DNA of 64,000 nt from an uncultured virus (IMG/VR IMGVR_UViG_3300046780_000922). Taxonomy: Duplodnaviria > Heunggongvirae > Uroviricota > Caudoviricetes. Below the pieces are notes generated by a model that was given only the letters and a program-made list of their open reading frames with translations, had not been told where the DNA came from and searched no databases. Below, one piece after another: positions 7,434 through 35,115 of the stretch (position 1 is its first letter; each line of letters begins with the position of its first letter). Location of the stretch: IMG/VR virus record IMGVR_UViG_3300046780_000922; one strand, given 5' to 3'. Both the position numbers and the translations under genes were made by a program.

Positions 7434-7436
7434 GTC

Positions 7437-13711: not shown

Positions 13712-13762
13712 AACTCGGCCCGTAGGCCTCGAGCGATCGCTTGAGGCTCTCGGAGCGAGGTT
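13712..13762 (+). repeat. conserved intergenic hairpin motif, copy D
   Basis: CGGCCCGTAG-GCCTCGAGC gatc GCTTGAGGC-TCTCGGAGCG; homologous to copies at 33.2, 33.9 and 35.1 kb. Confidence 0.75.
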
Positions 13763-13766
13763 AGCG

Positions 13767-14168
13767 ATGGATCATTGTTCTGTGCATTGGGCCTATCGGC
13801 AGTGGTGTGAGGACTGCCGGCATCAGCTCTTGGCCTATCGGGCAGCACGGATTGCGGCCGATCCGCGTGAAGCTCGTTTGTGGCAGTGGTTGTTCGACTC
13901 GCGTGGACCGGGAGAGGATGGTGGCGTCGATTCGAAGATCGTGCTCAGTGGCCTGTGCGAAGCGCTCGGCCCGAAGCGACTCGAGCAGATCATGCCGGCT
14001 GTTCCTGGTCTTGCAGAGTTCCTCACTTGGTGTGCGAAGGCGCGTGAACAGGACGAGGTGTTCGAACAGAACAGACGAGCGAAAGAAGAATCGATAGATC
14101 GTGCTGAGCTCGCGCGTCTGCGGGCCAAGTACGAGGTGGACGACATCAACGAGTTGCTCGAGCCATGA
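13767..14168 (+). CDS. hypothetical protein
   Basis: ORF coupled to the polymerase start. Confidence 0.55.
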   Translation: MDHCSVHWAYRQWCEDCRHQLLAYRAARIAADPREARLWQWLFDSRGPGEDGGVDSKIVLSGLCEALGPKRLEQIMPAVPGLAEFLTWCAKAREQDEVFEQNRRAKEESIDRAELARLRAKYEVDDINELLEP

Positions 14169-17146
14169 CTTCCGCCCCGATCGCGCACGATGACGAGCCG
14201 ATGCACCTCCCGGTGTTCGGGCCGGAGTTCGCCAAGTGCAACGAGTGCGAGCTCCAGGGGCAGTGCAAGACCAATCGGTGGGCGCCGAGCGCAGCGCCGA
14301 CCAAGGCCTTCAACGGCTTGATGATCGTCGGTGAAGGCCCCGGCACGCACGAGCTCCTGCACAAGGCCCCTTTCGTCGGCCCGTCAGGCAAGCTCCTCGA
14401 CTGCCTGCTCGAGAACTCGGGGATCGATCGGTCGCGTACGTACGTGACGAACGCCACGCTGTGCAAGCCGACCGGCGGCGCGAACGAGGAGAAGAAGGGC
14501 TTTGCCCAGCGGTTCCCGAACGCCATCCCTTCATGTCGTCCTCGGCTCGAGGCTGAGATCGAAGCCTGCCGGCCCAAGGGCATCGTGGCGCTCGGTGCTG
14601 CCGCACTGGTCGCTCTGACCGGCCGCTACGTGGACAAGGTCAAGCAGGTCGATAACCCCTGCCTCGCGTGCCGGGAGGACCGCGGCGTGGTCGGCTCCGA
14701 GACTCGCAAGCTCGGTCCCGTGCTCAAGTGCGCAGTGGGCGAGTGCGATTGGCACACAGACATCATCGTCGAGGGCCAGGACTACAAGGCCGTCGTCGAG
14801 GGCCTCGGTGGCAAGTGCCCGAAGTGCAGCGCGAACATCAAGCGCTTGCGGCCGCGGGCGATCAAGTGCCCCGCGTGCAAGGGCCTCAAGAAGCAGATGG
14901 TGATCGTCCCGGAGTTCAAGATCGAATACGGGCTCAAGGAGGCGGCCGGCGGCCTCTTCATCGGTGAGCAGTTGCCGGAGTGGCTCCGCGCGCATGGTGT
15001 CGAGTGGGTCATCGCGAGCTGGCATCCGGCCTGGATTCTGCGATCGGGCAAAGAGGCTGACGATGCCTCGGGCAAGAAGTTCGGTGGTCAGTTCGCTGCG
15101 CGTGCGATGCGGGACCATCTCGAGAAGGCCAAGAAGCTCCTCAATGCGCCTTGGCGCTACGATCTCGAGGTCGAGATCACGGACCGCCCCGAAGACGTGC
15201 TCGCGTACATCGCCGATGAGACCGGCTACTCGTGCGACATCGAGACGAACAGCAAGATCGCGTGGGATGTCTCGGACATCCGCTGCATCGGCATCGGTCA
15301 CCCCGGCCGGCCCCGCAAGCTCGTCGTCGACACGCGGCACCTCTTCAAGGTGACAGTCACGGAGCACGAGGACCGGCCTTTCGAGTTCGACATCGAAGTG
15401 CTCGATCAGCCGCTCTTCGACGTGCTGAAGGCCTTTCTCGTGGACCCGAAGCGGCCCAAGGCCGGGACCAACTTCGGCCAGTACGACACGATCGTGCTCT
15501 GGCGTTTCTTCGGGGTGCAGACGTTGCCCATCTGGGCCGATGTGGTCTCGACGCACCACATCCTCTACCCGGACGAGCCGCACGACTTGGGGCACGTCTC
15601 GGCCGAGATGACGATGACGCCGCACTGGAAGGAGCCCAAGGCTCAAGGCGGTGTGCTCCGGTACCGCGGCTTCGGCGAGCTCGCCGAGTACAACGCCCGC
15701 GACTGTCGTAACACCGAGCTCTCGCTCGAGGTGATGGCCGGCCAGTACGCGCCCGCGGAGCTTCAAGCGCCGCTCGGCGTGAAGGTCACGCAGTGGACGC
15801 GTGGTGGTCGCCTCGAGCGCCCGGACTACAACCTCGCGCTCGGTCACGCCATCTCGACTGCGCTCGTGCCGATCGCGGCCAGGATGAGTTACATGGGCTT
15901 GCCGCTCGATCTCAAGGTCCTGAAAGAGGTCGAACAGGAGAAGCTCGCACCCGAAGACAACTCGATCTGTGAGAAGTGCACGCATTTCAACTGCATGAAG
16001 GCGCGCATCATCGAGATGACGGGTCGGCCCGATTTCAAGATTTCGAAGCCTACGGACATCGCTTGGGCGCTCTTCGATCCGATGGGCCCCTGCAAGCTCT
16101 CGCCTCCCGTCATCACGGCCAAGGGCACGCCGAGCACCAAGAAGGACGTCTTGGCCAAGCTCGCGGGCAAGCACCCGCTCGTGGATGAGATCCGTATCGC
16201 AAAGCAGACTGCTTGGGTCTTCTCGAACTACATCTACGGGAAGAAGCTGATCCTGCGCGAGGACGGGCGCTTTCATCCCAAGTGGAACATCTCGTTCCCG
16301 GTCACGTTCCGTTGGTCGAGCGAACCGAACGTTCAGAACATAAGCCGCTGGCTGCGCAAAATCTTTCGTGCGCCGCCTGGTTGGGTGATCGTCGGTGCTG
16401 ACGAGAGCCAGCTCGAGCTGCGCATCTTGGCCGCGCTCTGTGGTGACCCCGAGCTCATTCGGCGCTGCCGCGATGCGAACGAGAAGGCAAAGACCGACCC
16501 GGAGCAAGACCCCCATAGCTTCGTGGCCTCGCACTACTTCGGCCTCGCCTTCATGGAGGGCACTGGCGAAGAGCGCAAGGTGCTCCGCGAGATCGCCAAG
16601 CAGATCGTCTACGCCAATAACTACAAGGCCGGACCCACGAAGATCCGCGACACGATCTACAACAAGGGCTACTCCGGGCCTCCGCTCGAGCTCCAGGTCA
16701 TCAAGGGCGTGCAGGAGACGATCAACAAGCTCTTTCCCAAGGTCCAGACGTGGGGTTCGGCGCAGCTCCAGTTCGCGACGCGCAATCTCGAGGTCCGCAG
16801 CCCTATCTTGAATCGCTGGCGCCCGTTCCCGCTCCCGCCTTCGCTCGGCGGCGGTGTCGAAGCTACGGTGGCAGCCAACTACCCGATCCAGGCCTGCGCG
16901 GCGGACATCGTAGACCTCTGCACCATCAAGTACGCGCACGCACTCGAGCAGCTCTGCCCCGAGGCCTGGATCATGGCGCAGGTCCACGACGCCGTTTACA
17001 CGATGTGCCCCGAGGACCGCGCTGACGAGGTCAAGCAGCTCAAGGAGCAGTGCTACTCCTTCGAGCTCCAGCTGGTAGAGGGCGCACCTGCGATGCCGTT
17101 CGTTGCGAGCGGTAAGATCGGCCACGACTGGGCGGAGGTATCATGA
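14165..17146 (+). CDS. polA: family A DNA polymerase fused to an N-terminal family-4 uracil-DNA glycosylase-like domain with a Cys-rich insert
   Basis: UDG: CNEC, GEGPG, FVGPSG, YVTNATLC, HPAWILR. Exonuclease: DIET, YNARD. Polymerase: RWSSEPNVQNI, ADESQLELRILA, REIAKQIVYANNY, NYPIQ, QVHD. Confidence 0.93.
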   Translation: MTSAPIAHDDEPMHLPVFGPEFAKCNECELQGQCKTNRWAPSAAPTKAFNGLMIVGEGPGTHELLHKAPFVGPSGKLLDCLLENSGIDRSRTYVTNATLCKPTGGANEEKKGFAQRFPNAIPSCRPRLEAEIEACRPKGIVALGAAALVALTGRYVDKVKQVDNPCLACREDRGVVGSETRKLGPVLKCAVGECDWHTDIIVEGQDYKAVVEGLGGKCPKCSANIKRLRPRAIKCPACKGLKKQMVIVPEFKIEYGLKEAAGGLFIGEQLPEWLRAHGVEWVIASWHPAWILRSGKEADDASGKKFGGQFAARAMRDHLEKAKKLLNAPWRYDLEVEITDRPEDVLAYIADETGYSCDIETNSKIAWDVSDIRCIGIGHPGRPRKLVVDTRHLFKVTVTEHEDRPFEFDIEVLDQPLFDVLKAFLVDPKRPKAGTNFGQYDTIVLWRFFGVQTLPIWADVVSTHHILYPDEPHDLGHVSAEMTMTPHWKEPKAQGGVLRYRGFGELAEYNARDCRNTELSLEVMAGQYAPAELQAPLGVKVTQWTRGGRLERPDYNLALGHAISTALVPIAARMSYMGLPLDLKVLKEVEQEKLAPEDNSICEKCTHFNCMKARIIEMTGRPDFKISKPTDIAWALFDPMGPCKLSPPVITAKGTPSTKKDVLAKLAGKHPLVDEIRIAKQTAWVFSNYIYGKKLILREDGRFHPKWNISFPVTFRWSSEPNVQNISRWLRKIFRAPPGWVIVGADESQLELRILAALCGDPELIRRCRDANEKAKTDPEQDPHSFVASHYFGLAFMEGTGEERKVLREIAKQIVYANNYKAGPTKIRDTIYNKGYSGPPLELQVIKGVQETINKLFPKVQTWGSAQLQFATRNLEVRSPILNRWRPFPLPPSLGGGVEATVAANYPIQACAADIVDLCTIKYAHALEQLCPEAWIMAQVHDAVYTMCPEDRADEVKQLKEQCYSFELQLVEGAPAMPFVASGKIGHDWAEVS

Positions 17147-17607
17147 GCGACGATAACGGGACTCTCGTAGCGGGCGCGATCATCCTCAACGCGAAGAAGA
17201 ATCGGATTCTTCTGACGCAACGCCAGTTCAACGATCGTTTCGGTCCAGGGCTCTGGGAGTGCCCCGGCGGGAAGGTCGAGGGCAGCGAGATCGAGATGCA
17301 AGCGCTAGCGCGTGAGCTCTACGAGGAGATCGGTCTCATCTACGAGACGCTGCCGCTCCGGTTCAAGACGATCGCTTTCTCTGCGGTCGAGTCGGCCATC
17401 CTCTTTGGAGGCACGCGGCGAATCGAGATCGCCTTCTACTTCGTTCACGCGCCCGATGATTTCATCCCCACACTGACTGAAGTAGCCGGTGCGGGGTGGT
17501 TCACGCTCGCCGAGGCACTCCATCTACCGCTCACACCGGGCACGCAATGTGTCTTGCAGGATCTCGAAGCAGTACGTTACGCCACGCTGAGACGGCAGGG
17601 CTACTAG
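17143..17607 (+). CDS. Nudix (MutT-like) hydrolase
   Basis: Nudix box GGKVEGSEIEMQALARELYEEIG. Confidence 0.9.
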   Translation: MSDDNGTLVAGAIILNAKKNRILLTQRQFNDRFGPGLWECPGGKVEGSEIEMQALARELYEEIGLIYETLPLRFKTIAFSAVESAILFGGTRRIEIAFYFVHAPDDFIPTLTEVAGAGWFTLAEALHLPLTPGTQCVLQDLEAVRYATLRRQGY

Positions 17608-17617
17608 GAGGTTCACG

Positions 17618-17794
17618 ATGGCTACGACGATCACGATCAGACAAGGCGATGCAGTTCGGTATGGTGAGACCACTTTTCGAGTGCTCGCCGTCTGGCAAGG
17701 TCGGCTGACGCTACTGACCAGTGGCAGCTACCGCGATGGACAACCATACGGCACGATCGAGGTCGCTGCCGATCAATGTAAGTTGCGACGATGA
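17618..17794 (+). CDS. small hypothetical protein (58 aa, absent from the ORF track)
   Basis: GGAGG RBS, ATG at 17618, TGA overlapping the next ATG. Confidence 0.5.
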   Translation: MATTITIRQGDAVRYGETTFRVLAVWQGRLTLLTSGSYRDGQPYGTIEVAADQCKLRR

Positions 17795-18573
17795 AAGTCT
17801 CGATCCTCACCGTCACGCAGCCCTCTCGCGAGGCCTTCTGGCCCTGGCTCGTCAAGATGGTCTCTCGACTCGAGCTCCCGCCCGGTCCTACGGGTGGCAA
17901 TGGTGATCACGAGTGGTTGATCTCTACGCCGTCGGCGCCGTGTCCTTCAGAGGACGTGCTTTACGAACTGCTATGCGACTCGGGTGGTCTCGGTGGTCCT
18001 TTTACGTGGAGACTCTTCTCTTCTGACAAGAAGACCCTCGGCGAGCGCCGGCAAGAGCTCCTCGACCGCGCGACCGGCGATGTGATCGCGTGGGTGGATG
18101 ATGACGACTGGCATCATCCGAGGCGCATCATGTGGGACTTGGAGTGCTTGCAGCGGATGAACTTCGATCATCCGCTCGCGACTGGCGCGGCCAAGGGCAT
18201 CGTGCGGCAAGGCGTGCTCTGTGTAGAGCTAACGACCGGACGTGGTCTCGTTACGCCGTTGATTGGTGTACCGATCTCGTTTGTTGGCGATCGCACATTC
18301 GCACGTTCCGCACGCTTTCCCGCGATCGATCAAGGGGAAGATGCTCGGTGGCTAGCTGCGCTTGAAGAAGATCCTTATGGCCTATGGAGCTTGATGCCCG
18401 AGGGCCGTCGCAAGCTCGTATCGCTCGTCCACGGTCAGAGCAGCTCAGCAGCACAGCAGCGTTCATGGCGCTTTACGATGAGCCCGGAAGACGTCGCGAA
18501 CTACCTCGGCCCCCAGTGGCAAAAGGACCAGCCCGATCTCGAAGCTCTGCGAGCACGCCTGAAGCTCCCGTGA
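17791..18573 (+). CDS. glycosyltransferase family 2-like protein
   Basis: VSILTVT, LGERRQ...ATGDVIAWVDDDDW, GED motifs. Confidence 0.8.
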   Translation: MKVSILTVTQPSREAFWPWLVKMVSRLELPPGPTGGNGDHEWLISTPSAPCPSEDVLYELLCDSGGLGGPFTWRLFSSDKKTLGERRQELLDRATGDVIAWVDDDDWHHPRRIMWDLECLQRMNFDHPLATGAAKGIVRQGVLCVELTTGRGLVTPLIGVPISFVGDRTFARSARFPAIDQGEDARWLAALEEDPYGLWSLMPEGRRKLVSLVHGQSSSAAQQRSWRFTMSPEDVANYLGPQWQKDQPDLEALRARLKLP

Positions 18574-18586
18574 TATCGTCCCCCGC

Positions 18587-18880
18587 ATGGGACAGCGAGG
18601 CCGGATTTCATTCCCACCGGACGGGAAGCTCGTAGAGCGCCTCGACGAACGACGTGCGCGGATCATCGCGGAGACGGGTGAGAGCTTGTCACGCTCGGCG
18701 CTCATCCGCGTCATGCTTCGCACCTCGCTCGGGGACTCTGCCTTCGAAGCGCTGACCGCTGAGGCACATTTTCGGCTCGGGCCGGCGCTCCGAAGAGCCC
18801 TCGGTCGGCTCGCTCGCGAGACACAGGAACGCCTCGGGGAGCTCGTAGAAGAGGAGCTCCGGGGCGCTGGCGAGGAGTAG
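18587..18880 (+). CDS. ribbon-helix-helix-like regulator
   Basis: RISF...LVERLD...SRSALIRVML. Confidence 0.55.
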   Translation: MGQRGRISFPPDGKLVERLDERRARIIAETGESLSRSALIRVMLRTSLGDSAFEALTAEAHFRLGPALRRALGRLARETQERLGELVEEELRGAGEE

Positions 18881-18882
18881 CG

Positions 18883-19593
18883 GTGGCTGGTGATGGAAAG
18901 CCCCGCTCGGACCGCAAGCTTGCTCCTGAGCTGAGAGAGATTCGCGCAGCGGCGGCCCAGGTCGACAACGAGACCGCCGTGCGCCTGTGGTCCGAGTACG
19001 GCGTCGTCGTGCGGCGCATCGCTCGGCGACTCTATGCGATCGCCGAGCGGTCCTTCATCGTCGTCACGGTCGACGATCTCATCTCGATTGGTCAGGTCGC
19101 GCTCTGCGAGGCGTGGACTCGCTTTCACCGAGAGCACCCGGACAAGACCGATCGCGGCTTTGGTCAGTGGATGCAGCGCGTCGTGCGCTGGCGAATCGTC
19201 GAGTCGCTGGAGCAGCTCCGGCCCGAAGGCCTCACGAGCGCGATGCGCGCCGACAGCCACAACGGTGCGCTCCACGACCGCGCCGGCCCGTTCGAGGATC
19301 CTGCCGATGCACTCCACCGGCGCGAGCTCCGTGCGTGGCTCCGCAGCGCGCTCGGGCAGCTCGACAGCCGAGAATCCATCCTGGTCATCGCCGTCATGAA
19401 CGGCGAGAGCCTCACCGAGGCCGGGGCCTCGCTCGGCATCGGTAAGACCCGCGCACACCAGGAGCACGAGCGGGCCATGGTCAAGCTCCGCCGGCTCGCG
19501 ATGAAGGCCCAGCTCATGCGTTCTGGGCTCGTAGACCCCGACTGTGGCGGCCTCGGAACGGCCGACTGGCTCGAGGAGCCCCTTTCAAGCTAG
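18883..19593 (+). CDS. sigma70-family RNA polymerase sigma factor
   Basis: Region 2 DDLISIGQVALCEAWTRF; region 4 LDSRE...SLTEAGASLGIGKTRAHQ...AMVKLR. Confidence 0.85.
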   Translation: MAGDGKPRSDRKLAPELREIRAAAAQVDNETAVRLWSEYGVVVRRIARRLYAIAERSFIVVTVDDLISIGQVALCEAWTRFHREHPDKTDRGFGQWMQRVVRWRIVESLEQLRPEGLTSAMRADSHNGALHDRAGPFEDPADALHRRELRAWLRSALGQLDSRESILVIAVMNGESLTEAGASLGIGKTRAHQEHERAMVKLRRLAMKAQLMRSGLVDPDCGGLGTADWLEEPLSS

Positions 19594-19603
19594 GCTTGCG
19601 GCT

Positions 19604-19933
19604 ATGAGTTGGTGGAAGGGCACGCTGGTCGGTCTCGCCGCAGGTGGTCTCGTCGGCGGCATCCTCTGGTACTTCGCGCGCAAGAGCCTCGACGACGCCT
19701 TCCAGCAAGGCGCGCTCCAGCTCGCGAGCCAGCTCACCGGAGGCTCGGGCCAGCTGCAACAGCAGCTCCAGCAGGGCCAGCAACAGCTGCAAGCGCAGAT
19801 CGCGCGGGACGTACCCGGTCAGGTCCAGCAGACCATCCAGAGCACGCTCTCGAGCTACGGCATCACGCCGCAGATGGGCCAGCGCTTCGCCACGCTCGTG
19901 AACTACGCACAGAGCCACGGGATGATCTCGTGA
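19604..19933 (+). CDS. membrane protein
   Basis: N-terminal Gly-rich TM, Gln-rich helix, YGITP. Confidence 0.7.
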   Translation: MSWWKGTLVGLAAGGLVGGILWYFARKSLDDAFQQGALQLASQLTGGSGQLQQQLQQGQQQLQAQIARDVPGQVQQTIQSTLSSYGITPQMGQRFATLVNYAQSHGMIS

Positions 19934-20063
19934 TCCATTCATTTCTGCCATGCGAGAACTGTCCCTCACCGGTATCGCGAGGCAGCACGCTCTGCTCTGC
20001 GTGCATCGCTGCGGGCGTCAAGCCCAAGCAGAAGCAGCCAACCAAGCCGATCAAGGAGAGCAA

Positions 20064-20360
20064 GTGAACTACCTCCTCGGCGGCCTCACCGGTGGCGGGC
20101 TCGTCTTCGGCATCTTGCTCCTCATGAAGAAGCAAGAGCTGAACGACCGGGCTGCTCTGCTTCAACAGGGCTTCCAGAACCAAGGCTCGGGCACGCAGAT
20201 GCTCCTCGAGCTCCAGGGCTCGGAGATGCCCGCACAGCTCCAGGCCTACGCGAACCAGGTCGCGCAGTCGGCCGCGCAAGACACGCTCGCTCGCGTCTAC
20301 GGGATCACGCCGTCAGTCGTCCAGTCGCTCACGCGTCTGTCCTCTCGTCTCGGGCTCTAG
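20064..20360 (+). CDS. membrane protein, paralog of 19604-19933
   Basis: AAGGAG RBS, GTG start, Gly-rich TM, QQG, YGITP. Confidence 0.65.
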   Translation: MNYLLGGLTGGGLVFGILLLMKKQELNDRAALLQQGFQNQGSGTQMLLELQGSEMPAQLQAYANQVAQSAAQDTLARVYGITPSVVQSLTRLSSRLGL

Positions 20361-20368
20361 GAGGCTCC

Positions 20369-20740
20369 ATGCGCAAGATGTTGCTGGCCGTTGCATTGCT
20401 CTCTGGTTGCGGTGCAAACGCGATTACGGTAGCTGCCGAGGGCGACTCCTCGTTCGAGGTAGCGCATGCACGAGCGCTCGAACAGGTCGACATCGCTCGA
20501 CAGCGTGCGCTCACCGCGGCGGCCAGTCACGGCACGGCTGCGTTGCACGCGGAGACGGCGCGATGGCGACCACTCGCCGAGCTCAGTAACACCTTGCGTG
20601 ACGCCGAGGTGCTCTACACAGATGCCCTCGATGCGCAGCGGCGCCACGGTACACCGCTCGACCCGTCACTGCTCCCGCGCGCTGAGCAGCTGTTCGCTGA
20701 TCTCGTTGCCATGGCCCAATCGCTGGGAGTACGCCTGTGA
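20369..20740 (+). CDS. putative lipoprotein
   Basis: MRKMLLAVALLSGC lipobox; GGAGG RBS. Confidence 0.7.
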   Translation: MRKMLLAVALLSGCGANAITVAAEGDSSFEVAHARALEQVDIARQRALTAAASHGTAALHAETARWRPLAELSNTLRDAEVLYTDALDAQRRHGTPLDPSLLPRAEQLFADLVAMAQSLGVRL

Positions 20741-22940: not shown

Positions 22941-22985
22941 GGACAACCGCAAGGCCTGTTGCTACCATCTCCCACGGAGGTTCAA

Positions 22986-24347
22986 ATGCGAAGACTGATT
23001 GCGGTGTTGATCTGTCTCTTGATGGCGTGCGCCGGTCCTGATCCTGACGTGGTTGCAGGTGCGCCCGCAGGTCTGAGCGATGGCGATTTGGTGAGGTTTC
23101 TGCACGGCCGCGATCTCTTCTTCAACGAGACGTTCGGCGGTAACGGCCGCACGTGCAGCTCGTGCCACCTCCGGCGAAACATCGCCGAGAACTTCGATTT
23201 CAGTCCGGCCGATGCACAAGCGATCTTCGCAGAAGACCCCACCAATCCGCTCTTTCGTGCGATCGACTCGGACGACGGCGCTGGCGCCGACTACGGCCTG
23301 CTCCTGAATCACGCGCTCGCGCACATCCCGCTCACGCTGCCGGCAAACATCACGGTGGACGAGACCAGTTCACCGCTCGTGCGCCACAACGCGGACGGCA
23401 CGACGACCGTCGTCGTCTTCCGTTCGACCCCGACCGTCGAGAACATCGCGCTCGAAGAGAACATCATGTGGGACGGGCGGTTCCACCACTCGCTCCATGA
23501 TCAGGCGATCGGCGCGGTCAACACGCACTATCAGCCCACACGGCAGCCCACGGACGTCGAAGCGAACGACATCGGCTTCTTTCAAGACTTCGCGTTCACG
23601 CAGCTCTCGACGGCCATCTTTGCAGCGGGTGGCCCGGCGCCCACGTTACCGACTGTCCCAGCTGGCGTGAGCCACGACTCAGCACGCCGTGGCCGCAACT
23701 TCTTCGTGTCGATGGCTGTCGTGCCTGGTGCGCCGGTTCGCGGTGGGCACTGCGCGACGTGTCATAGCGGACCGATGCTCGACACGACCAACGCCTTCAA
23801 TCCCGTCCAGCAAGCCGGCCAGCAGCGCACGAACAACTTCGTGAGCGAGGTCAACGCGCCCTCGCCGGTCTTCCCGCCAGGAACGCGCTTCGGTATCGGC
23901 CTGCCCGAGCTCACCTACCGCATTACGCTGCTCCATCCGGTCTTCATGCCTGACGGCATCCCGTTCCCGATTCCGCCGGGCACGCCGCTCTTTCCGCCAG
24001 GCCTGACGTTCACCGTCCGTTCGAGCGACCTCGGAACGCTCTATACGACGGGCGATCCGTGCGAGGCCCCGCTTGCGTGTTTGATCAACAGCGACCCCAC
24101 AACAGGACGCCTCGGCACGGTGTCCTTCTTCAAGACGCCCACGCTTTGGGGCACGGCTGATAGCGCGCCCTATTTCCACAACAACAGCGCTGATCAGCTC
24201 GAAGATGTGCTCGAGCACTACCAGACGTCGCTCTTCACGCTGACCGCGCTCGGCACGAGCAATCCAGCTTGGCTGCTCACCGAACAAGAAGAAGCGGACA
24301 TCGTGGCTTACATGCGCTTCGCATTCCGCCGCGCAACGATCTTTTGA
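22986..24347 (+). CDS. di-haem cytochrome c lipoprotein (cytochrome c peroxidase/MauG-like)
   Basis: Lipobox LMAC; CSSCH and CATCH haem motifs; MWDGR; FKTPTLWG...APYFHN. Confidence 0.88.
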   Translation: MRRLIAVLICLLMACAGPDPDVVAGAPAGLSDGDLVRFLHGRDLFFNETFGGNGRTCSSCHLRRNIAENFDFSPADAQAIFAEDPTNPLFRAIDSDDGAGADYGLLLNHALAHIPLTLPANITVDETSSPLVRHNADGTTTVVVFRSTPTVENIALEENIMWDGRFHHSLHDQAIGAVNTHYQPTRQPTDVEANDIGFFQDFAFTQLSTAIFAAGGPAPTLPTVPAGVSHDSARRGRNFFVSMAVVPGAPVRGGHCATCHSGPMLDTTNAFNPVQQAGQQRTNNFVSEVNAPSPVFPPGTRFGIGLPELTYRITLLHPVFMPDGIPFPIPPGTPLFPPGLTFTVRSSDLGTLYTTGDPCEAPLACLINSDPTTGRLGTVSFFKTPTLWGTADSAPYFHNNSADQLEDVLEHYQTSLFTLTALGTSNPAWLLTEQEEADIVAYMRFAFRRATIF

Positions 24348-28468: not shown

Positions 28469-28815
28469 CCGCAACCGATCGTGGCGTTGGGGTGCTTGAG
28501 GCAAGCAGCACGTAGCTGGCTGAGCCAGACCAGCACGCCCGTCACGCTGCCCCAGCCATTCTTTGGTTCGCGATCCTCGAGCGCATCGTGGTCGCGCTTG
28601 ATGGTCTCCATCGCGGTCCGAAGGAACGGGAGCGCGATGGAAGCGCGGGCGCCTTGGAGCACGAAGCGCGGACAGCCGGGCTCGTTCGGCATGTACACCT
28701 CGAGCCCGCCATGTGCGAGCGCGTAGTGCATGTTGTAGGTGAGATTCCAGCTCTCGGTGATGCGCGCCGGGTACTCCCCGCCCGTGTCGATCTCTAGCCA
28801 GGCATCGTAGCTCAT
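28465..28815 (-). CDS. hypothetical phage protein
   Basis: MSYD...NLTYN...PKNGWGS pattern. Confidence 0.65.
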   Translation of the reverse strand: MSYDAWLEIDTGGEYPARITESWNLTYNMHYALAHGGLEVYMPNEPGCPRFVLQGARASIALPFLRTAMETIKRDHDALEDREPKNGWGSVTGVLVWLSQLRAACLKHPNATIGCG

Positions 28816-30736
28816 GTGTTTAGCTCCTCTGGTTTGATCAGGGTCATGCTGCCGGAACCGCCGCGTGTGGTTGTCCAGCGCCAGACTTCTCGATCTGGTA
28901 GTTGCTCGTAATCGTAGGCCACGATGTTGCGCTTACGCATGAGCTTCATGAGTGCAGCCCGCTTGCGCGCGAACAGGAAGCCGGGCTGATGCCGCGGGCA
29001 GCGAGAGAAGTCCACTTGCGTCAGCTCCGCCCGCGGCGCGCCCACGAGGATCGCTCGCGCACGGCAGCAGCCCCAGCTACAAGCCCAGTGCGGCTTACGG
29101 CTCACGCGGACCGGCCTTGAGCTTCTCGATCGCGGCTTTCATCGAGGCGCACTTGCGCATGAGCGAGGCTGCCGCCTCGCTACGCACGAGCTGCCGTGCA
29201 TCGCCGCCTCGCAGGATGAGCTTGATCAGACTGTCGAGGAGTAGGACTTCCGCCTCGGAGAAGCTCTGCGAGGCGGCGATGCGCTTGTTCGGCGCCATCA
29301 GAGATGCGTCCGCTTGAACTCTTCGAAGTAGCCGCGCATCGCGTCGCGCGCTTCGTCGGTCTCGAGCCACTCCTCGAACTGGGCGAGCCAGCTCGAGCGG
29401 CTGTCCTTCATATCCGCGTTCCACTCCTTGGCGAACGCGTCGGCCAAGAGCTTCATGAACTGGGCGAACTCGGCCGCGGTGCAATCGAATGCGGGATCCT
29501 CGAACATCAGTGCCTCTCTTTCGTTGGTTTCGGTTCCGTGGAGATGCGCTCTACGCAGACGTTGTCGTAGACCGGAATGCTTGCCGTCCGCCCGATGTGG
29601 ACGTTCCAGACGATCTGCCGTTCGTGGCGCAGGCAGTAGTCGCGGCGCGTGCCAGCCTGCGAGCACGCCAGCACGAACAAGACCACGAGCGCGCAGAAGA
29701 GCGCTCGCATGAGTTGCCGGCGGCGCTGGTAGTGCCGCACGCCGGCTTGGAGCTCGAACGCGCTACGAAAGGTCGCGATCACGTCAGTCGACACGGCCGG
29801 CTACTTTCTGGGCGAGGTACCCCTCGATGATCGCGATGATGTTCTCGGGCACGGAGAGCGCTTCATCCTCCGGCTTGCGATCGTAGACGTTGAGCTTCTG
29901 CCAGCGCCCCGGGCCCCCGCTGTCCGTGTAGACGCCCTGTTTGCGGAACGAGATGGTGGTGCCGCTCGCGGGCTTCGTGCCCGTCAGGCGGTCCATCTTC
30001 GGCGTGAACGAGGCCAACGCCTTGAACGCTTGCAGGCGGTACTCCCACGTGCCAGCGACCCGCTTTTCAGTCTTCGTGCTCATCTTCATCACCTCCCGTG
30101 GATCGGACAATCGATGTTCGCGTCTGCGATGTCGGTGCACAGACAGCCCCTGGGTTGGCGCTGTCGGTAGAGGCCAGTCTCAGCGTGCTTGCGCAAGCGG
30201 GCGATGACGGCGCGGTTGTTACGACAACCGTGGCAGAGGAGCGGTGCATCCGGCCGCACCCGGCACTGATCGCAGGGCTCGAACTCCAGATTGACCCAGA
30301 CACGTTTGTTTGTCATAGCCACTCCGCGAAATGCAAGGGGTCGTTGAGGGTTCTGTCGATCTTATCGATTCGGGCAGTCCCGGAGATGCGGATCTCGATT
30401 CGCTCGAAAAGCCGCAACGGCTTGGTACTCGCCGCGTACAATATCTGTTGCGGCATCGTCCCGAGCTTGAATCGGAAAGGGTGTGGTCGACGTGAGGACC
30501 GATTCCAGAAGAACATACGCATGTCAGCGCTTCACTGTCAGTCGGTCTGTGCTACGATCGGTCGCGCGAACTCGCTCGATCGTGATTCGATACTGGCCCT
30601 GCGTTATGCGGTAGCCAGCCACGCCTAGCGCGATCTCGATTTCGTCAGTCAGTTCGACACGTCGCGACGGGCCTTTGCCCTCCACGTAGACCTCGATTTC
30701 GGCCCAGCGTGTCACGGGGCGCACGCTGTGTTGCAC
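28812..30736 (-). other. chain of about 8 short, translationally coupled hypothetical ORFs (28812-29105, 29095-29298, 29298-29507, 29507-29794, 29784-30089, 30089-30322, 30313-30522, 30524-30736)
   Basis: Overlapping start/stop codons typical of a phage accessory region. Confidence 0.5.
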
Positions 30737-31125
30737 TCGCCGTTGACGACGATGGCGAGGTTAGCGCACGAGTCGACCTGCGTCTGTAGGTCGTTCAGGC
30801 ACCAATCGGGGTTCGGGCCGGTGCAGACGGGCGCCCAGCTCGAGGGGCACGCGATGCCGCAGCTGAATCGCGCGTTGAGCTGGTCGACGAGCGCGCAGAC
30901 GGTATCCCGCTCGACGGCCGGGGGCTCGTAGGCGTCCGGTGCGTCCGGCTCGCTGGCGTCCGTTCCAGCGTCCGCGTCCGTGCTGCCGGCGTCATCGCCG
31001 CACGCGGGGTCCGGGCAGGTCGTGACGCTGCCGTCCGTGGTGACGTCGCACGGCGGGCAGTGCCACTCGTGCGTGCTCTGCGCACAGGCGGTGAGGAGCA
31101 CGAGAGCGAGATAAAGCTTGCGCAT
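30712..31125 (-). CDS. Cys-rich lipoprotein with Asp-Ala-Gly linker
   Basis: MRKLYLALVLLTAC lipobox; DDAGSTDADAGTDA; multiple Cys. Confidence 0.7.
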   Translation of the reverse strand: MRKLYLALVLLTACAQSTHEWHCPPCDVTTDGSVTTCPDPACGDDAGSTDADAGTDASEPDAPDAYEPPAVERDTVCALVDQLNARFSCGIACPSSWAPVCTGPNPDWCLNDLQTQVDSCANLAIVVNGECNTACAP

Positions 31126-31130
31126 GATGA

Positions 31131-32096
31131 TCAGTCCTCCAGAGTCTTGGCCGCTTTGAGCAGCGACACCTTGTGCTCTTCTTCGCGCACCTTGATCGTC
31201 TCGATCTTCTCCATATCGAGCACGCTCTCGAGCGCTTCGGTGATGATGTCACGGAGCGTGGTCGGGTCGAGCGCATCCACCTCCCACGAGGAATCGCCGT
31301 GCTTGTCCACGTAGGCCTTGGCGCGACTGTCCGAGAGCTTCGCCGGGTTGGGCGGCGGCGAGTATTCCTCGATCTGTTCCATCGTCAGCGCGAGCTTGCG
31401 GACGTCCAGCCAAATCTTCGGATGCCGGGTCCTCGAGTCCGCGATGGTCTCGACCGTCACCTCATCGCCGCTCCAGTCGACGAGTAGGCCATTGTTCAAG
31501 AACTGGTGGAGCCGCTCCGAGATGTCGCGGACCATGTCCTCGCCAGACGGGTCGTGGTCGCCGAGGTAGAAGACGATGGCCTCCGAAACGCCGTAGCGCT
31601 TGCACTTGCGACGAATCCGATCGGCCGACTCCTTCATCGCGCTTGAGCTCGAGTAGCCGCGGTTGACCATGAGCGTGACGTGGTACTCCGCGGCGATCGG
31701 TTCGAGCACGCCCGCGAGCGCGTCTTTCTCGACCCATAGCTCGACGTAGACGCTCTGACCATCGAGACGCGGTAGCCGGTAGCTCCGCAGTGCCGACTCG
31801 AGCATCGCCTTGGGCGAGGCGTGCTCGGCCCAGATGACGGGTCGACGAACACGGTCCTCGAGTGCATCCCAGTCCACCAAGCCCCCGCAGCGAGCGCTCG
31901 AGATGATGCTCCCCAAGCGCTTGTAGCTCTTCTCGGTGTTGGGAATCAGATCGCGCGAGACGAACTGGTAGTACAGCTGGCGCAACGTCAGCGTGAGGCC
32001 TTGCGCCAGATAGCTCTCGATGATCGAGTTGGCCTTGAGGATCGTCTTGCGCGTCTCGGCGGAGGGGTTGTAGTTCTCGAAAAACTCGCGTGCCAT
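31131..32096 (-). CDS. Topoisomerase VI-A/Spo11-like Toprim protein
   Basis: LTLRQLYY (catalytic Tyr helix), VELWVEKDAL, YLGDHDPSG (DxD), WEVDAL. Confidence 0.8.
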   Translation of the reverse strand: MAREFFENYNPSAETRKTILKANSIIESYLAQGLTLTLRQLYYQFVSRDLIPNTEKSYKRLGSIISSARCGGLVDWDALEDRVRRPVIWAEHASPKAMLESALRSYRLPRLDGQSVYVELWVEKDALAGVLEPIAAEYHVTLMVNRGYSSSSAMKESADRIRRKCKRYGVSEAIVFYLGDHDPSGEDMVRDISERLHQFLNNGLLVDWSGDEVTVETIADSRTRHPKIWLDVRKLALTMEQIEEYSPPPNPAKLSDSRAKAYVDKHGDSSWEVDALDPTTLRDIITEALESVLDMEKIETIKVREEEHKVSLLKAAKTLED

Positions 32097-32100
32097 CGGC

Positions 32101-32517
32101 CTATCTCCCCAGATCAGCAAGCCACTTGCGAAGGGAGTCTATCTCCCCCAAGTGCAGCCAGTCCACCGTGCCCCATTGCGCGGTGAAGTTGTGCGGACGA
32201 TCGCCCCCGCTCACCACGATGTGGGGCACGCCCGTCCCGTCGAGCGTGCTGAGCACGCGGTCCCCGATGGGCTGAGCCTCACGCCCGTCTCGCCGGGGGA
32301 AGCTCCAGTCCGTGATGACGCCGGCCCATCGACTGGGCACGGTGGCCCAGCTACCGATGGTGGACTGCAAGCTGAAAATGACGTCCATCCACTCCGCCAA
32401 GGTGTGCAAGCGCACGAGCTCGAGATCAGGCCGCGCTTGCTGAACGATCCGGCGCAGCGTAGACGCCTTCAGGTCGTCGTCTTCGATGAGCCAGAGGACT
32501 TTGGCGCCGGTGGTCAT
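32101..32517 (-). CDS. response-regulator receiver-like protein
   Basis: WLIEDD, VITDWSFP (phospho-Asp position), IVVSG. Confidence 0.6.
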   Translation of the reverse strand: MTTGAKVLWLIEDDDLKASTLRRIVQQARPDLELVRLHTLAEWMDVIFSLQSTIGSWATVPSRWAGVITDWSFPRRDGREAQPIGDRVLSTLDGTGVPHIVVSGGDRPHNFTAQWGTVDWLHLGEIDSLRKWLADLGR

Positions 32518-32737
32518 TCGTCCTCTGACCAGCCCGCACAGAACTCGCCGCCTTGATTCGCAGCGGCCGGTTTCAAATCAATGCGTGGTGCCCACGGTTT
32601 GATGACCGTCACCTCGCCACAGTCAGTGCACGTGAGCGTCAGCTCGGAGAAACCGACCAACCCATCGGGAATGGCGACCGCATGAATCGTTGCGGTCTTA
32701 CAGCCGCAGTTGCCGCACTTCACGATGCTGCGCTTGC

Positions 32738-33211
32738 TCATGACTGGCCGGCTTTCTTGAGCAGCGCCGGATGCCAGCACGTTACGCGCCGGCCGGTCAC
32801 TTGCTCGACGTGGCGGTAAAGGCCCGCTGCGACGAGCAGCGACTCACGTGCGGTCGCTGCCATGTTCGGATCACCGGCCCACTGCGCCGCCTCATCCATG
32901 AGGTAGTCAGCGACACCTCGCAGCGCCTTTACAGACGGCGGCGGAACGGCAGCCAGATCGGCGTATCCCCGACGCGGACGCTTGGCCATGACTTTGGCGC
33001 CGGTGGTCACTTGATCACTTCCCGCGAGGACCACGGTGCGCGGATCACGCGCGTAGAACCCCTCGGGCACGGCATCACAATCCCAGCGCACGATGATCCG
33101 GCCGTCCGGCCGAACTTCGGTCACGGTGCCGCGCATGTTCGCGTACGCACGGATCGAGTCCGGCCGGATATCGGCCGGTTTCACCCGGGCACCCACCATA
33201 AACGTGCTCAT
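32738..33211 (-). CDS. hypothetical protein (SH3/KOW-like N-terminus)
   Basis: FMVGARVK...GTVTEV...IIVRWD; GAGG RBS. Confidence 0.55.
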   Translation of the reverse strand: MSTFMVGARVKPADIRPDSIRAYANMRGTVTEVRPDGRIIVRWDCDAVPEGFYARDPRTVVLAGSDQVTTGAKVMAKRPRRGYADLAAVPPPSVKALRGVADYLMDEAAQWAGDPNMAATARESLLVAAGLYRHVEQVTGRRVTCWHPALLKKAGQS

Positions 33212-33239
33212 CTTCTTGTTGCCTCTCTAGCCGGTCACT

Positions 33240-33288
33240 TGACCGCGCTCGGAGAGCGCTCGCGAGGAGCGCCTACCGGCCGCGTTCA
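33240..33288 (-). repeat. conserved intergenic hairpin motif, copy A
   Basis: CGGCCGGTAG-GCGCTC ctcgc GAGCGC-TCTCCGAGCG starting at the upstream stop codon. Confidence 0.8.
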
Positions 33289-33894
33289 ACGCTTCTTCGA
33301 ACCCGGGTAGCGGACCTCGCCGAACATGTCCGTGGTCGAACCCTCGCCGGGCTTCACCAGCGGCGCCGCCTCGCCTTCGGCGAACATCGCCTCGCCTTCG
33401 GCGAACCACATCTTTTGAGCGGCTTTGCCGAAATCGCACGCGTCATCCTCACCGAATCCGCGGCCAGCGGCGAAGCCGTGGGCGTAGTCGTACGCATCGA
33501 GCGCGCGTTCCGGGTCCAAGTCCGCTATCCAGGTGTGGAAGTCCTCGTGCAGCTTCGTTGCGTCGAGCGCCGCCGTCTCTTGCTTCGGTTCGAGCACGCT
33601 CACGACCGCATCGAGCACGCGCTCGAAATCGCTCTCGTCGTCGAGCGCGCAGGACTCCACCGTGAGGAGCGCCGTTCGCACGCGATCGCGCAACGCGGCC
33701 CTGGCGCGCACTGCACAAGGAATGGCACCTGGCGAGGCGAACAGCACTCGTCCGGTCGTGTAGCTACCGGGCTCCTCGCCAGTCCACACCGGCGCGCGTG
33801 GGATGTTCGCAGCTGCCAACGCTGCCGCTGCGCGCTCGCACTCGGCGAGCGTGTTGACGGGGTACGGAGCCCCGTTCACGAAAACCGTCTCCAT
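33286..33894 (-). CDS. hypothetical protein
   Basis: GAGG RBS; flanked by motif copies A and B. Confidence 0.6.
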   Translation of the reverse strand: METVFVNGAPYPVNTLAECERAAAALAAANIPRAPVWTGEEPGSYTTGRVLFASPGAIPCAVRARAALRDRVRTALLTVESCALDDESDFERVLDAVVSVLEPKQETAALDATKLHEDFHTWIADLDPERALDAYDYAHGFAAGRGFGEDDACDFGKAAQKMWFAEGEAMFAEGEAAPLVKPGEGSTTDMFGEVRYPGSKKR

Positions 33895-33913
33895 TCTGCC
33901 TCGCTTCTAGCGG

Positions 33914-33963
33914 TGAGCCCGCTCGGAGAGCCTCGATTGCTCGAGGCCTACCGGCCGGGTTCA
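33914..33963 (-). repeat. conserved intergenic hairpin motif, copy B
   Basis: CGGCCGGTAG-GCCTCGA gcaa TCGAGGC-TCTCCGAGCG. Confidence 0.8.
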
Positions 33964-35019
33964 GCCGAGCATGTCGGTCAGCATCGCGCGCCCGATGGAC
34001 GTGTCATCGATGCCGTGTGCGTGCGCCTCGATGGATGCCTTCGAGGCAAGGGAGCCGTCAGCGAGAACCACTTCGATGACCTTGCGGATTTCCTCGACGC
34101 GCTTGCCGCGCGTGCCGAAGAGCAGCGAATCGAGCTTGTCGGCTCCGCCGCGGGCCGCGCGGGCTTGACCGTCCACGGTGCGGTCTACGAGCCACGTGGC
34201 AGCGTTCCAGAGCGTGGCGAGCGTCGAACCGGCTTGGTTCTCAGCGCGCTCGGCTGCGCGCAACGCGTCCGCACGCAAGTTCAATGCGCGAGTCTGTTCG
34301 CGGCCGGGTTCCGCCGGTGCGGGAAAGAGACGCGCCAGGATTTCCTCCGCATCGGTACGGCTCACCGTGCGCGCTTCTGCCGTGTGATAGAGTTCTTTGA
34401 TCTTACAGCCCTCTTTGACCGCGGCATCGATCGCCTTGGCGAGCGCGGCGATCTTTTCGGGGAGCGTCGAGGTGTGGCGAATGCGTGCGGAAGCCTCATC
34501 GCCCTGGAGCATCGATGCCAGCTGGTTGGCACAGAAAAAGCGCATCGCGGTCATGCCGCAGGTGAGTCGTAACGAGCCGTCGAAAGCGTCTGCGATGGCC
34601 AAGTTCGTGAGAATGCCGTTGCTCTGTCCAACCTCGAACGTCGCGAGCAGTCGAGCACCACCGCGGAGCGCGAAGGCTCCGGTTGGCCGCGCTCCGGCCT
34701 CGACTGCGGCCTGACAAAGCTCGCGCCAACCCGCCGGAGTGGTGTGCGTATAGCGATCGCCCACCATGCCGAGCGCGCGCCGCGAACCATCCGCATACTC
34801 GCCCACGACAGCCTTGGCCATCTCGCGCGGGATATCGAGCTTACCGTCGACCGTCTTGACTGAGAACTGGCCCACACGGACTGGCCACGCGCCCGACTGC
34901 TCGCCAGCTACGATGAGATCGCTCGCCGTCTTGATTTCGCCCGCTTGCTTCAGGCCGTACCAGCTCGACTTGAGAAGCGCATTGGTGTGAACGCCCTGGA
35001 TCTGTTCGTGCTTGTCCAT
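33961..35019 (-). CDS. DUF932-family phage protein
   Basis: LGMVGDRY, GAFALRGG, DGS...TAMRFFCANQL, RIRHT, TLWNAAT. Confidence 0.8.
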   Translation of the reverse strand: MDKHEQIQGVHTNALLKSSWYGLKQAGEIKTASDLIVAGEQSGAWPVRVGQFSVKTVDGKLDIPREMAKAVVGEYADGSRRALGMVGDRYTHTTPAGWRELCQAAVEAGARPTGAFALRGGARLLATFEVGQSNGILTNLAIADAFDGSLRLTCGMTAMRFFCANQLASMLQGDEASARIRHTSTLPEKIAALAKAIDAAVKEGCKIKELYHTAEARTVSRTDAEEILARLFPAPAEPGREQTRALNLRADALRAAERAENQAGSTLATLWNAATWLVDRTVDGQARAARGGADKLDSLLFGTRGKRVEEIRKVIEVVLADGSLASKASIEAHAHGIDDTSIGRAMLTDMLG

Positions 35020-35057
35020 TTCGATGTCTCTTGTAGCGTGGGGAAGTGCGAAGTTCG

Positions 35058-35115
35058 TTCGCGCACGCTCGGAGAGACTCGGATCGTTGTCCGAGCCCTA
35101 CCGGCCGGGTGCGAA
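35058..35115 (-). repeat. conserved intergenic hairpin motif, copy C
   Basis: CGGCCGGTAG-GGCTCGGA caacga TCCGAGTC-TCTCCGAGCG. Confidence 0.8.

What the first reader, a model, noticed from the sequence alone, without database searches (positions are those of the whole stretch)
13712..35115. Unrecognised four-copy intergenic hairpin motif with covariation, in the same genetic slot as the hammerheads
Seen: copies at 33240-33288, 33914-33963 and 35058-35115 (- strand) and 13712-13762 (+ strand) are always in coding orientation between a stop codon and the next start. Consensus: outer stem-CG-GC-C(G/C)G-UA-[variable 6-9 bp hairpin]-UCU-C(C/G)G-AG-CG-outer stem. The apical and outer stems differ in sequence but remain paired (G-U allowed). 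The 3-bp middle stem shows a compensatory swap (CGG/CCG to CCG/CGG in the 13.7 kb copy), and the internal loops GC/AG and UA/UCU are invariant. Five consecutive spacers (33.2-36.0 kb) contain either this motif or a hammerhead. Inference: a new mRNA-processing element (candidate self-cleaving ribozyme, RNase site or protein-binding hairpin). A single-stranded DNA recombination site for the nearby tyrosine recombinase is an alternative.
Basis: partly seen in the sequence, partly recalled or inferred. Interest (0 to 1): 0.82.

Follow-up and report, generated by a model that had tools for sequence, protein, structure and literature searches.

The report
Conserved intergenic RNA hairpin in phages
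A 55-65-base hairpin with an unchanging core sits between genes of several uncultured soil phages, in the same slots as self-cutting hammerhead RNAs, and is probably a so-far uncatalogued signal for cutting or insulating long phage messages.

Summary
The window is part of an uncultured soil phage (GC 64%). It carries exactly four copies of a rod-like hairpin: 13706-13767 (+) and 33236-33292, 33910-33967, 35056-35117 (-). Each copy lies in the sense orientation between a stop codon and the next ribosome site.

The three minus-strand copies and three type II hammerheads fill six consecutive spacers.

No Rfam 15 family matches the motif. With covariance models I found 21 more copies, giving 25 distinct copies in 8 contigs. 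These include a distant relative of this phage and two phages with no BLAST-detectable protein similarity to it. Of 19 modelled pairs, 18 show compensatory changes, and 94.5% of cells are paired.

Seven loop or adjacent bases are invariant (G, C, C-G pair, U, A ... A, G). G-U pairs occur on the sense strand 36 times against 5 A-C mismatches, so the sense strand is the one that folds, most simply as RNA.

Function is untested. My best reading is an intercistronic mRNA processing or insulation hairpin cut by a double-strand-specific nuclease, built like the T7 RNase III sites. A minimal new self-cleaving ribozyme is the boldest rival that remains open (about 0.2). An attC-like site for the nearby integrase is not supported.

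The parts
13706..13767 (+). Motif copy D (core 13717-13757). It lies between ORF 13116-13700 (stop TAG) and ORF 13767-14168, just upstream of the PolA-UDG gene. P2 is CCG/CGG.
   Evidence: 74.2 bits; 66.3 bits
33236..33292 (-). Motif copy A (core 33246-33281). The stop codon TGA of ORF 33286-33894 (33288-33286) lies in the 5' strand of the outer stem.
   Evidence: (70.4 bits)
33910..33967 (-). Motif copy B (core 33920-33956). The stop codon TGA of the DUF932 gene (33963-33961) lies in the 5' strand of the outer stem.
   Evidence: (75.9 bits)
35056..35117 (-). Motif copy C (core 35066-35106). It lies 40 nt after the stop of ORF 35148-35369 and 46 nt before the DUF932 start.
   Evidence: (79.4 bits)
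33226..33231 (-). 3' tail hexamer GCUAGA after copy A, followed by the ribosome site and ATG at 33211
33906..33911 (-). 3' tail hexamer GCUAGA after copy B, followed by the ribosome site and ATG at 33894
35032..35037 (-). 3' tail hexamer GCUACA after copy C (variant of GCUAGA)
   Evidence: read from the sequence
36340..36403 (-). Type II hammerhead 1, between ORF 36405-36944 and ORF 36004-36327
   Evidence: Rfam RF02276, 49.7 bits (gathering 37); sequence
35953..35997 (-). Type II hammerhead 2 (core CGAAAC...GUC...CUGAAGAGG), between ORF 36004-36327 and ORF 35456-35881. Rfam did not list it.
   Evidence: Regex for the hammerhead core, fold, sequence
35394..35456 (-). Type II hammerhead 3, between ORF 35456-35881 and ORF 35148-35369
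   Evidence: Rfam RF02276, 35.0 bits, just under the gathering score of 37, E 1.4e-4
33961..35019 (-). DUF932 / TIGR03299 gene, flanked on both sides by motif copies (C upstream, B downstream)
   Evidence: Pfam PF06067 1.6e-18; phrog_1221; TIGR03299
32738..33894 (-). Two small genes of unknown function (33286-33894 and 32738-33211), separated by copy A

Best explanation
The element is a cis-acting RNA hairpin, transcribed as part of long polycistronic phage messages. I think it works as an intercistronic processing and insulation signal. It folds into a rod of about 22 base pairs (about 27 stacked steps). The order is: outer stem (often holding the upstream stop codon), 4-bp stem, invariant 2x2 loop GC/AG, a stem of exactly 3 bp, 2x2 loop UA/NU, and a variable hairpin. 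The irregular one-turn core (two loops plus the 3-bp stem) would be the recognition and cleavage site for a double-strand-specific endoribonuclease, most likely a host RNase III-type enzyme. Cutting would leave the upstream cistron ending in a protective stem. It would also free the downstream cistron, whose ribosome site follows within 10-30 nt. Shown here: the copies, the fold, covariation, strand specificity, fixed position between stop and start, spread across unrelated phages, and slot-sharing with hammerheads. Inferred only: that the element is RNA rather than ssDNA, that it is cut, and by what.
For: (1) Structure. In 25 curated distinct copies, 18 of 19 modelled pairs have changes on both sides, and 445 of 471 cells are standard pairs. 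On the 21-copy alignment, 94.9% of cells pair against 70.4% in shuffles (0 of 500), and slid partners give 35-45%. Single-sequence folding reproduces the two 2x2 loops in most copies. (2) Sense strand. There are 36 G-U cells against 5 A-C cells (34 against 3). Every copy checked for flanking ORFs lies on the coding strand of those genes, in both plus and minus gene blocks. (3) Fixed slot. The upstream stop ends 3-17 nt before the core in 18 of 22 copies. The next start lies 3-55 nt after the core in the 21 with a call (mostly 18-40). Ribosome sites are visible in between. (4) Same slot as self-cleaving RNAs. Six consecutive spacers at 33.2-36.4 kb hold three hammerheads and then three motif copies. 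No sigma-70-like promoter and no terminator-like site lies at any of them. Clustered hammerheads that flank single phage genes are taken to process long transcripts (PMC3088659, passages read). (5) RNase III-like anatomy. Helix length is 18-26 bp (median 22; 24-34 steps). I folded five T7 early-region spacers, one of which holds R1.1. They show the same design: a lower stem that in the 0.4/0.5 spacer contains the upstream stop codon, an internal loop, an upper stem of about 10 bp, flanks shared between copies, a variable tip, then the ribosome site. R1.1 is a 60-nt T7 hairpin with an internal loop that RNase III cuts in vivo (PMC6121014, passages read). (6) No phage-encoded partner is evident. 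The motif occurs in phages that share no BLAST-detectable proteins. None of the 66 window ORFs scanned carries an RNase III or HUH transposase domain. This favours a universal host factor or self-sufficiency.
Against: No cleavage data of any kind exist, and no RNA run holds the sequence. The invariance of seven core bases across phages that share no detectable proteins is more than a generic RNase III substrate is known to need (from my own knowledge of RNase III, not from a call). It fits a sequence-specific partner or catalysis better. The two loops are symmetric 2x2, unlike the asymmetric 4/5 loop of T7 R1.1. The host is unknown. Part of the invariance is ascertainment: 14 of the 25 copies were first reached by patterns that fixed most core bases. 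The 11 copies found only by the models still keep the seven bases while varying at other pattern positions.
Confidence: 0.38

Rival explanations
1. The element is a new, minimal class of self-cleaving ribozyme. The invariant bases of the two 2x2 loops and the 3-bp stem between them would form the active site, and the RNA would cut itself between cistrons as the neighbouring hammerheads do.
For: It has the same slot, orientation and spacing as three type II hammerheads in consecutive spacers. It lies next to DUF932-type accessory genes in two unrelated phages. My recollection that this is the kind of neighbourhood used to find twister-sister, pistol and hatchet comes from memory. The review section I read describes the approach without naming gene families (PMC6765202, section 5). 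It combines an invariant core with freely covarying stems in phages that share no detectable proteins, which is the pattern small ribozymes show. Two motif-rich phages carry no detected hammerhead, as if the motif replaced them. The loops are kept unpaired: a Watson-Crick partner opposite the invariant A occurs in 1 of 25 copies.
Against: The fold is a plain rod with no multi-helix junction, no pseudoknot and no conserved terminal loop. As far as I know, every natural self-cleaving class has at least one of these. Only about seven invariant bases are available. Copy L133:8551 has its second loop closed into Watson-Crick pairs yet keeps everything else. Other structured RNAs found in hammerhead or twister neighbourhoods did not cleave when tested (PMC6765202, section 5).
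Confidence: 0.2
2. The element is a protein-, ribosome- or polymerase-binding RNA that is not cut. It could be an mRNA stabiliser or insulator, a regulator of translation re-initiation after the embedded stop codon, or an antitermination or pause signal.
For: The asymmetric, sequence-specific internal loops in a helical frame look like a protein recognition surface. The stop codon lies inside the outer stem in many copies, and a ribosome site follows closely. A second conserved piece follows the hairpin: GCUAGA or GCUGAA(C), in 11 of 25 copies, from the window, L133/L134, G001 and G005. GCTAGA is otherwise rare, at 9-12 per genome on both strands.
Against: No shared phage protein can be seen among the carriers. 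The distance from stop codon to core falls in at least two reading frames, so no fixed read-through peptide or SECIS-like reading is possible. The hammerheads in the same slots point to cutting.
Confidence: 0.22
3. The element acts at the DNA level as a small mobile or recombinogenic single-strand hairpin. It would be REP-like, MITE-like or attC-like and would spread among phage genomes and shuffle gene cassettes, with its transcription incidental.
For: It occurs in phages that share no detectable proteins. A (G/C)TAG tetranucleotide sits at the foot of the variable palindrome in 24 of 25 copies, as in REP elements (a recalled feature of REPs; counts). Copies B and D share an apical stem although they lie 20 kb apart on opposite strands. 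One copy in L133 and one in G001 share 19 of 23 apical bases although the adjacent genes are unrelated. The anatomy of outer stem, unpaired spacer, inner stem and variable tip resembles attC. G-T pairs would also be tolerated in sense-strand ssDNA.
Against: None of the 66 window ORFs scanned has an HUH/Y1 transposase domain. The integrase is not an integron integrase and is absent from G001 and G005. No attC core sites are present in the required order. The strict pattern found 15 places in 185,579 species genomes, and none forms the hairpin, so there is no chromosomal REP-like family. The strict tie to transcription direction and to the stop-to-ribosome-site interval is what selection on the transcript predicts.
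Confidence: 0.12

Closest known systems
RNase III processing signals of the bacteriophage T7 early polycistronic mRNA (R0.3-R1.3; R1.1 is the model substrate)
   Same: Both are multi-copy hairpins of about 50-60 nt in intercistronic spacers, in the sense orientation. Both have a lower stem, an internal loop and an upper stem, with flanks shared between copies and a variable tip. The upstream stop codon can lie in the lower stem, and the ribosome site follows directly. I folded five T7 spacers here. The identity of R1.1 comes from PMC6121014.
   Different: There is no sequence similarity. This motif has two symmetric 2x2 loops separated by exactly 3 bp, not one asymmetric 4/5 loop. Its core is invariant across phages that share no detectable proteins. 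Cleavage is not shown. That the other four T7 spacers hold RNase III sites is my recollection, because the records do not annotate them.
Clustered type II hammerhead ribozymes flanking single genes in phage and prophage operons (Rfam RF02276; Perreault et al. 2011, PMC3088659)
   Same: Same slot, orientation and spacing, and the two alternate within one operon of this window. Both have an invariant core with covarying stems.
   Different: There is no hammerhead core (CUGANGA, GAAA, UH) and no three-way junction. Rfam gives no hammerhead score on the motif. Self-cleavage is unknown.
RAGATH candidate motifs (structured RNAs near genes associated with twister and hammerhead)
   Same: The motif was found by the same guilt-by-association logic. 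It lies next to DUF932-type genes and beside hammerheads.
   Different: It matches none of the RAGATH or other families in Rfam 15, even at E up to 10. Rfam does hold RAGATH entries such as RF02686 and RF03064 (PMC13085918, passages).
REP elements / REPINs with RAYT transposases
   Same: Both are short GC-rich imperfect palindromes preceded by GTAG, found in intergenic regions often just after stop codons. REPs can stabilise upstream mRNA (recalled).
   Different: No RAYT gene is present. There is no high-copy chromosomal family. Extra conserved paired flanks exist here. The elements sit in phage genomes and strictly co-orient with genes.
Integron attC sites
   Same: Both show the stem, unpaired spacer, stem and variable tip anatomy, lie downstream of ORFs, and fold on one strand only.
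   Different: No RYYYAAC/GTTRRRY core sites, no extrahelical bases and no integron integrase. Copies lie in several operons on both strands.

Membership tests
Any Rfam 15 family (including hammerhead, twister, twister-sister, pistol, hatchet, hairpin, HDV and the RAGATH motifs) | Covariance-model score at or above the family's gathering score | tested here: not met
   The whole window at gathering thresholds gives only hammerhead II at 36340-36403. Permissive scans (E up to 10) of 32800-36800 and 13500-14000 give nothing on the motif except noise (mir-879, 19.2 bits against 90).
Hammerhead ribozyme | Three-way junction with the core CUGANGA / GAAA / UH | tested here: not met
   The motif is a single unbranched hairpin. 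The core regex hits only the three true hammerheads of the window.
T7-type RNase III processing signal | Intercistronic hairpin of about two helical turns, interrupted by an internal loop, on a polycistronic transcript | tested here: met
   18-26 bp (median 22) and 24-34 stacked steps. Position between stop and start. No promoter-like or terminator-like sites at the spacers. T7 spacers folded for comparison.
T7-type RNase III processing signal | Site-specific cleavage by RNase III | not testable with these tools
   No RNA run holds the sequence. An enzyme assay is needed.
Self-cleaving ribozyme (any class) | Site-specific self-scission giving 2',3'-cyclic phosphate and 5'-OH ends | not testable with these tools
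   In vitro transcription and cleavage assays are required.
Self-cleaving ribozyme (any class) | Conserved core held by a junction, pseudoknot or docking loops | tested here: inconclusive
   An invariant core is present. No junction and no conserved terminal loop are present. A 3-4-nt complementarity between the tail CUA(G/C) and the core (S)UAG is seen in some copies only (read by eye).
Integron attC | R''/R' core sites (RYYYAAC ... GTTRRRY) and an adjacent integron integrase | tested here: not met
   The core sites are absent in the required order (sequences). The integrase scores 28.6 bits against a cut-off of 265 for TIGR02249.
REP / RAYT | GTAG-headed palindrome present in many copies in a genome that encodes a RAYT (Y1 transposase) | tested here: not met
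   (G/C)TAG precedes the palindrome in 24 of 25 copies. No Y1 transposase is found among 66 window ORFs. There are no true copies in 185,579 species genomes for the strict pattern.
Intrinsic terminator | GC-rich hairpin followed by a U tract | tested here: not met
   No terminator-like site lies at any copy. The tails are purine-rich ribosome sites.
Bacterial SECIS / programmed read-through signal | UGA followed by a hairpin at a fixed reading-frame distance, with coding continuing | tested here: not met
   The distance from stop to core is 3, 4, 7, 8, 10 ... nt, which mixes frames. The stop is TAG or TAA in 7 of 21 copies with a call.

The most novel reading that the evidence does not exclude
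The hairpin is a new and unusually small class of self-cleaving ribozyme. It would be an unbranched rod whose two invariant 2x2 loops and 3-bp spacer form the active site, used by soil phages interchangeably with type II hammerheads to cut polycistronic early messages.
Probability: 0.18. Interest if true: 0.9.

Novelty: new variant of a known kind. Interest (0 to 1): 0.62.

Why it matters
Why phages punctuate operons of small accessory genes with self-cleaving RNAs is an open question (PMC6765202, section 5). This motif is a compact, strongly supported structured element in the same slots. It comes with 25 natural variants that already act as a mutational series: the 3-bp stem occurs in four compensated versions, one loop is closed in one copy, and the tip stem varies in length. 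If it self-cleaves, it would be a new ribozyme class and the simplest natural one. If a nuclease cuts it, it would be a sequence-specific processing signal shared by phages that share no detectable proteins, and a natural cistron insulator. Either outcome can be tested in a few days with short transcripts.

Tried and rejected
- **RNA runs:** none holds the stretch. Three soil or rhizosphere DNA runs do, and one may be the source. So there is no end-mapping.
- **No whole genome is held** for the window.
- **Loose viral pattern:** None has the upstream GGCC plus a hairpin, so all are chance.
- **Strict viral pattern:** 0 hits.
- **Strict genome contigs pattern:** 15 places. The best model scores are 20.8-25 bits and none has the tip hairpin. 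I treat them as chance or coding matches.
- **Weak or decayed candidates left out of the 25:** L148, L142, L144 (a mismatch in the 3-bp stem), L181/G004, L226:10615-10660 and the antisense hit of L133:8551.
- **DUF932 relative L117 (48% identity):** no motif and no ribozyme.
- **G002, a structural-gene relative:** no copy.
- **Relatives of ORF 35456-35881:** none in viral contigs, so exchange of motif and hammerhead at orthologous slots could not be tested.
- **GenBank phages:** no DNA match to the motif, no relative of the DUF932 gene or of structural protein 50219-51322, and PolA at 27% identity or less.
- **Literature:** searches for RAGATH, DUF932 with ribozyme, new ribozyme classes, core strings, intergenic RNase III stem-loops and CMfinder phage motifs found no description of this motif.
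- **GGCCGGTAG also in the stem I hairpin of hammerhead 3** and at two unrelated sites: judged coincidental.
- **An alternative register** for either loop is contradicted by variants (reasoned).
- **Our-findings look-ups** by sequence and by place returned nothing.
Full report
**What the window is.** It is 64 kb at 64% GC and looks like part of a large uncultured phage.
- It encodes an SNF2 helicase, a RecD2-like helicase, a PD-(D/E)XK nuclease, a PolA fused to a UDG domain, a sigma factor, a tyrosine integrase, a DUF932 protein, an M23 peptidase, and many ORFs with no family.
- A soil metagenome run holds the full stretch.
- No cultured phage is close. PolA is at most 27% identical, and a structural protein and the DUF932 protein have no match.

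**The observation.** The four copies are real.
- The strict pattern gives 4 hits against 0 in 100 shuffles.
- Model R1 scores the four at 70-79 bits, and nothing else exceeds 17.8 bits when the whole window is scanned without filters. The broader model R2 agrees.
- Each copy folds alone into the same rod.
- Among the four, 11 of 19 pairs change on both sides and 96.1% of cells pair (0 of 500 shuffles reach this; slid partners give 23-45%).

**Anatomy**, from the 5' end:
- an outer stem, frequently UUGA/UCAA;
- a 1x1 mismatch;
- a 4-bp stem ending in CG/CG;
- a 2x2 loop, GC opposite AG;
- a stem of exactly 3 bp;
- a 2x2 loop, UA opposite CU;
- a variable hairpin of 7-12 bp that usually opens with G-U.

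The minus-strand copies and three type II hammerheads occupy six consecutive spacers between 36.4 and 33.2 kb. Hammerhead evidence is 49.7 bits, 35.0 bits, and a third recognised by its core and fold. No promoter-like site was found anywhere in 32.5-37.0 kb, and none of the four terminator-like sites lies at a spacer. The operon therefore reads as one transcript.

**Not a known family.** Rfam 15 gives nothing on the motif at gathering thresholds or at E up to 10. Rfam does hold RAGATH entries. Seven literature searches found no description.

**Relatives.** I searched the collections with fixed patterns and confirmed each hit with the models. The 21 further copies are:

| Source | Copies | Notes |
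|---|---|---|
| Soil metagenome contig L133/L134 | 9 | all on one strand, each in a spacer |
| L131 | 2 | |
| L145, L135, L123 | 1 each | |
| Viral record G001 (86.8 kb, terminal repeats) | 5 | |
| Viral record G005 (108.7 kb, 70% GC) | 2 | |

- G001 is a distant relative of the window's phage. About 20 proteins match at 25-50% identity.
- L133/L134 and G005 share no BLAST-detectable protein with the window. L133 does carry a DUF932 gene bracketed by two motif copies, as the window does.
- No hammerhead was detected in L133, G001 or G005.

**Family-wide evidence** (25 curated distinct copies).
- 18 of 19 modelled pairs have compensatory changes, and 445 of 471 cells are standard pairs.
- The 3-bp stem occurs as CGG/CCG, CCG/CGG, CGC/GCG and CUC/GAG. 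Its first pair is C-G in all 25.
- The CG/CG pairs below the first loop become UA/UA in one copy.
- The closing pair of the tip hairpin is G-U 14 times, G-C 9, C-G once and G-A once.
- Invariant in 25 of 25: the loop bases G and C, the following C-G pair, U and A of the second loop, and A and G opposite the first loop.
- Opposite the UA, the bases are C/G/U (17/7/1) and U/A (24/1). The loop is therefore kept unpaired in 24 of 25 copies.
- G-U pairs number 36 against 5 A-C, so it is the sense strand that folds.

Caveat: 14 of the 25 copies were reached through patterns that fixed most of the core. The 11 found only by the models keep the seven bases while differing at other pattern positions. 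The models also favour conserved sequence, and the alignments were fitted to the model.

**Position** (22 copies).
- The upstream ORF's stop ends 3-17 nt before the core in 18 copies, often as the UGA inside the outer stem.
- One of the four exceptions has a GC3-supported ORF that ends about 5 nt before the core.
- The next start lies 3-55 nt after the core in the 21 with a call (mostly 18-40), with a visible ribosome site.
- The stop-to-core distance falls in different frames, which excludes a fixed read-through or SECIS-type reading.
- A second conserved piece follows the hairpin: GCUAGA (6 copies), GCUACA (1) or GCUGAA(C) (4 in L133, all four occurrences in that locus). GCTAGA is otherwise rare, at 9-12 per genome on both strands.

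**Mechanism.** The data show a selected fold of the sense strand at a fixed place in polycistronic units, sharing slots with self-cleaving RNAs. I read it as an RNA processing and insulation signal.

I place a protein nuclease of the RNase III type first (0.38):
- The element is an unbranched helix of 18-26 bp.
- Five T7 early spacers that I folded have the same layout, including the R1.1 substrate (PMC6121014).
- No phage-encoded partner is shared by the carriers.

A new self-cleaving ribozyme (about 0.2) stays open because of the slot, the gene neighbourhood and the invariant core in phages that share no detectable proteins. It lacks any junction or pseudoknot, one natural copy closes a loop, and similar neighbours of hammerheads have failed to cleave (PMC6765202, section 5).

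A binding element that is not cut (0.22) and a mobile or recombinogenic ssDNA hairpin (0.12) remain possible. The attC-like idea tied to the nearby integrase fails its tests.

**Earlier notes of this scan.** They describe other, differently shaped hairpin elements in hammerhead slots of other phages. Those notes are unchecked, and for two of them part of the reading later fell. They suggest a general phenomenon but are not evidence for this case.

Noticed in passing
window 33226-33231, 33906-33911, 35032-35037 (-); L133 3181, 5051, 5621, 7180, 8611, 9930; G005 12242, 14212: A conserved hexamer, GCUAGA, GCUACA or GCUGAA(C), follows the hairpin in phages that share no detectable proteins. Its CUA(G/C) is complementary to the core (S)UAG in some copies. 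Its role is unknown; it could be a cleavage site, a standby site or a tertiary contact.
   Followed up: partly
window 35385-35420 and 35935-35965 (-): Hammerheads 2 and 3 share an identical 3' tail (GGCAACGCGCGUUCGCUACGCGC) that contains a small hairpin. In hammerhead 3 the stem I loop UAGC can pair with GCUA of this tail, as expected for the type II pseudoknot.
   Followed up: partly
window 6354-7433 and 8152-9411 (+): A RecD2-like helicase appears split into an N-terminal ORF (OB and HHH domains) and a C-terminal ORF (AAA_30/UvrD_C), with about 700 bp between them. This could be an intron, an intein or an inserted gene.
   Followed up: no
window 14165-17146 (+): A family A DNA polymerase is fused to an N-terminal uracil-DNA glycosylase-superfamily domain. 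G001 conserves it at about 30% identity.
   Followed up: no
L133 3181-3194, 5051-5064, 5621-5634, 8611-8624: The soil contig has an identical leader, GCUGAACAGGAGGA, in front of four genes. In every case it comes directly after a motif copy, so hairpin plus leader behave as one repeated unit.
   Followed up: partly
window 51406-53552 (-); G001 6655-8821: There are three tandem paralogous genes of unknown function in the structural region, also triplicated in the distant relative G001.
   Followed up: no
window 22959-24347 (+): A di-haem cytochrome c peroxidase-like protein (PF03150) is encoded in the phage replication region and conserved in G001 (32% identity).
   Followed up: no
L133 3117-3179 and G001 41159-41219 (-): Two copies from phages whose adjacent genes are unrelated share 19 of 23 bases of the otherwise free tip hairpin. 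This hints at horizontal movement of the element itself.
   Followed up: partly
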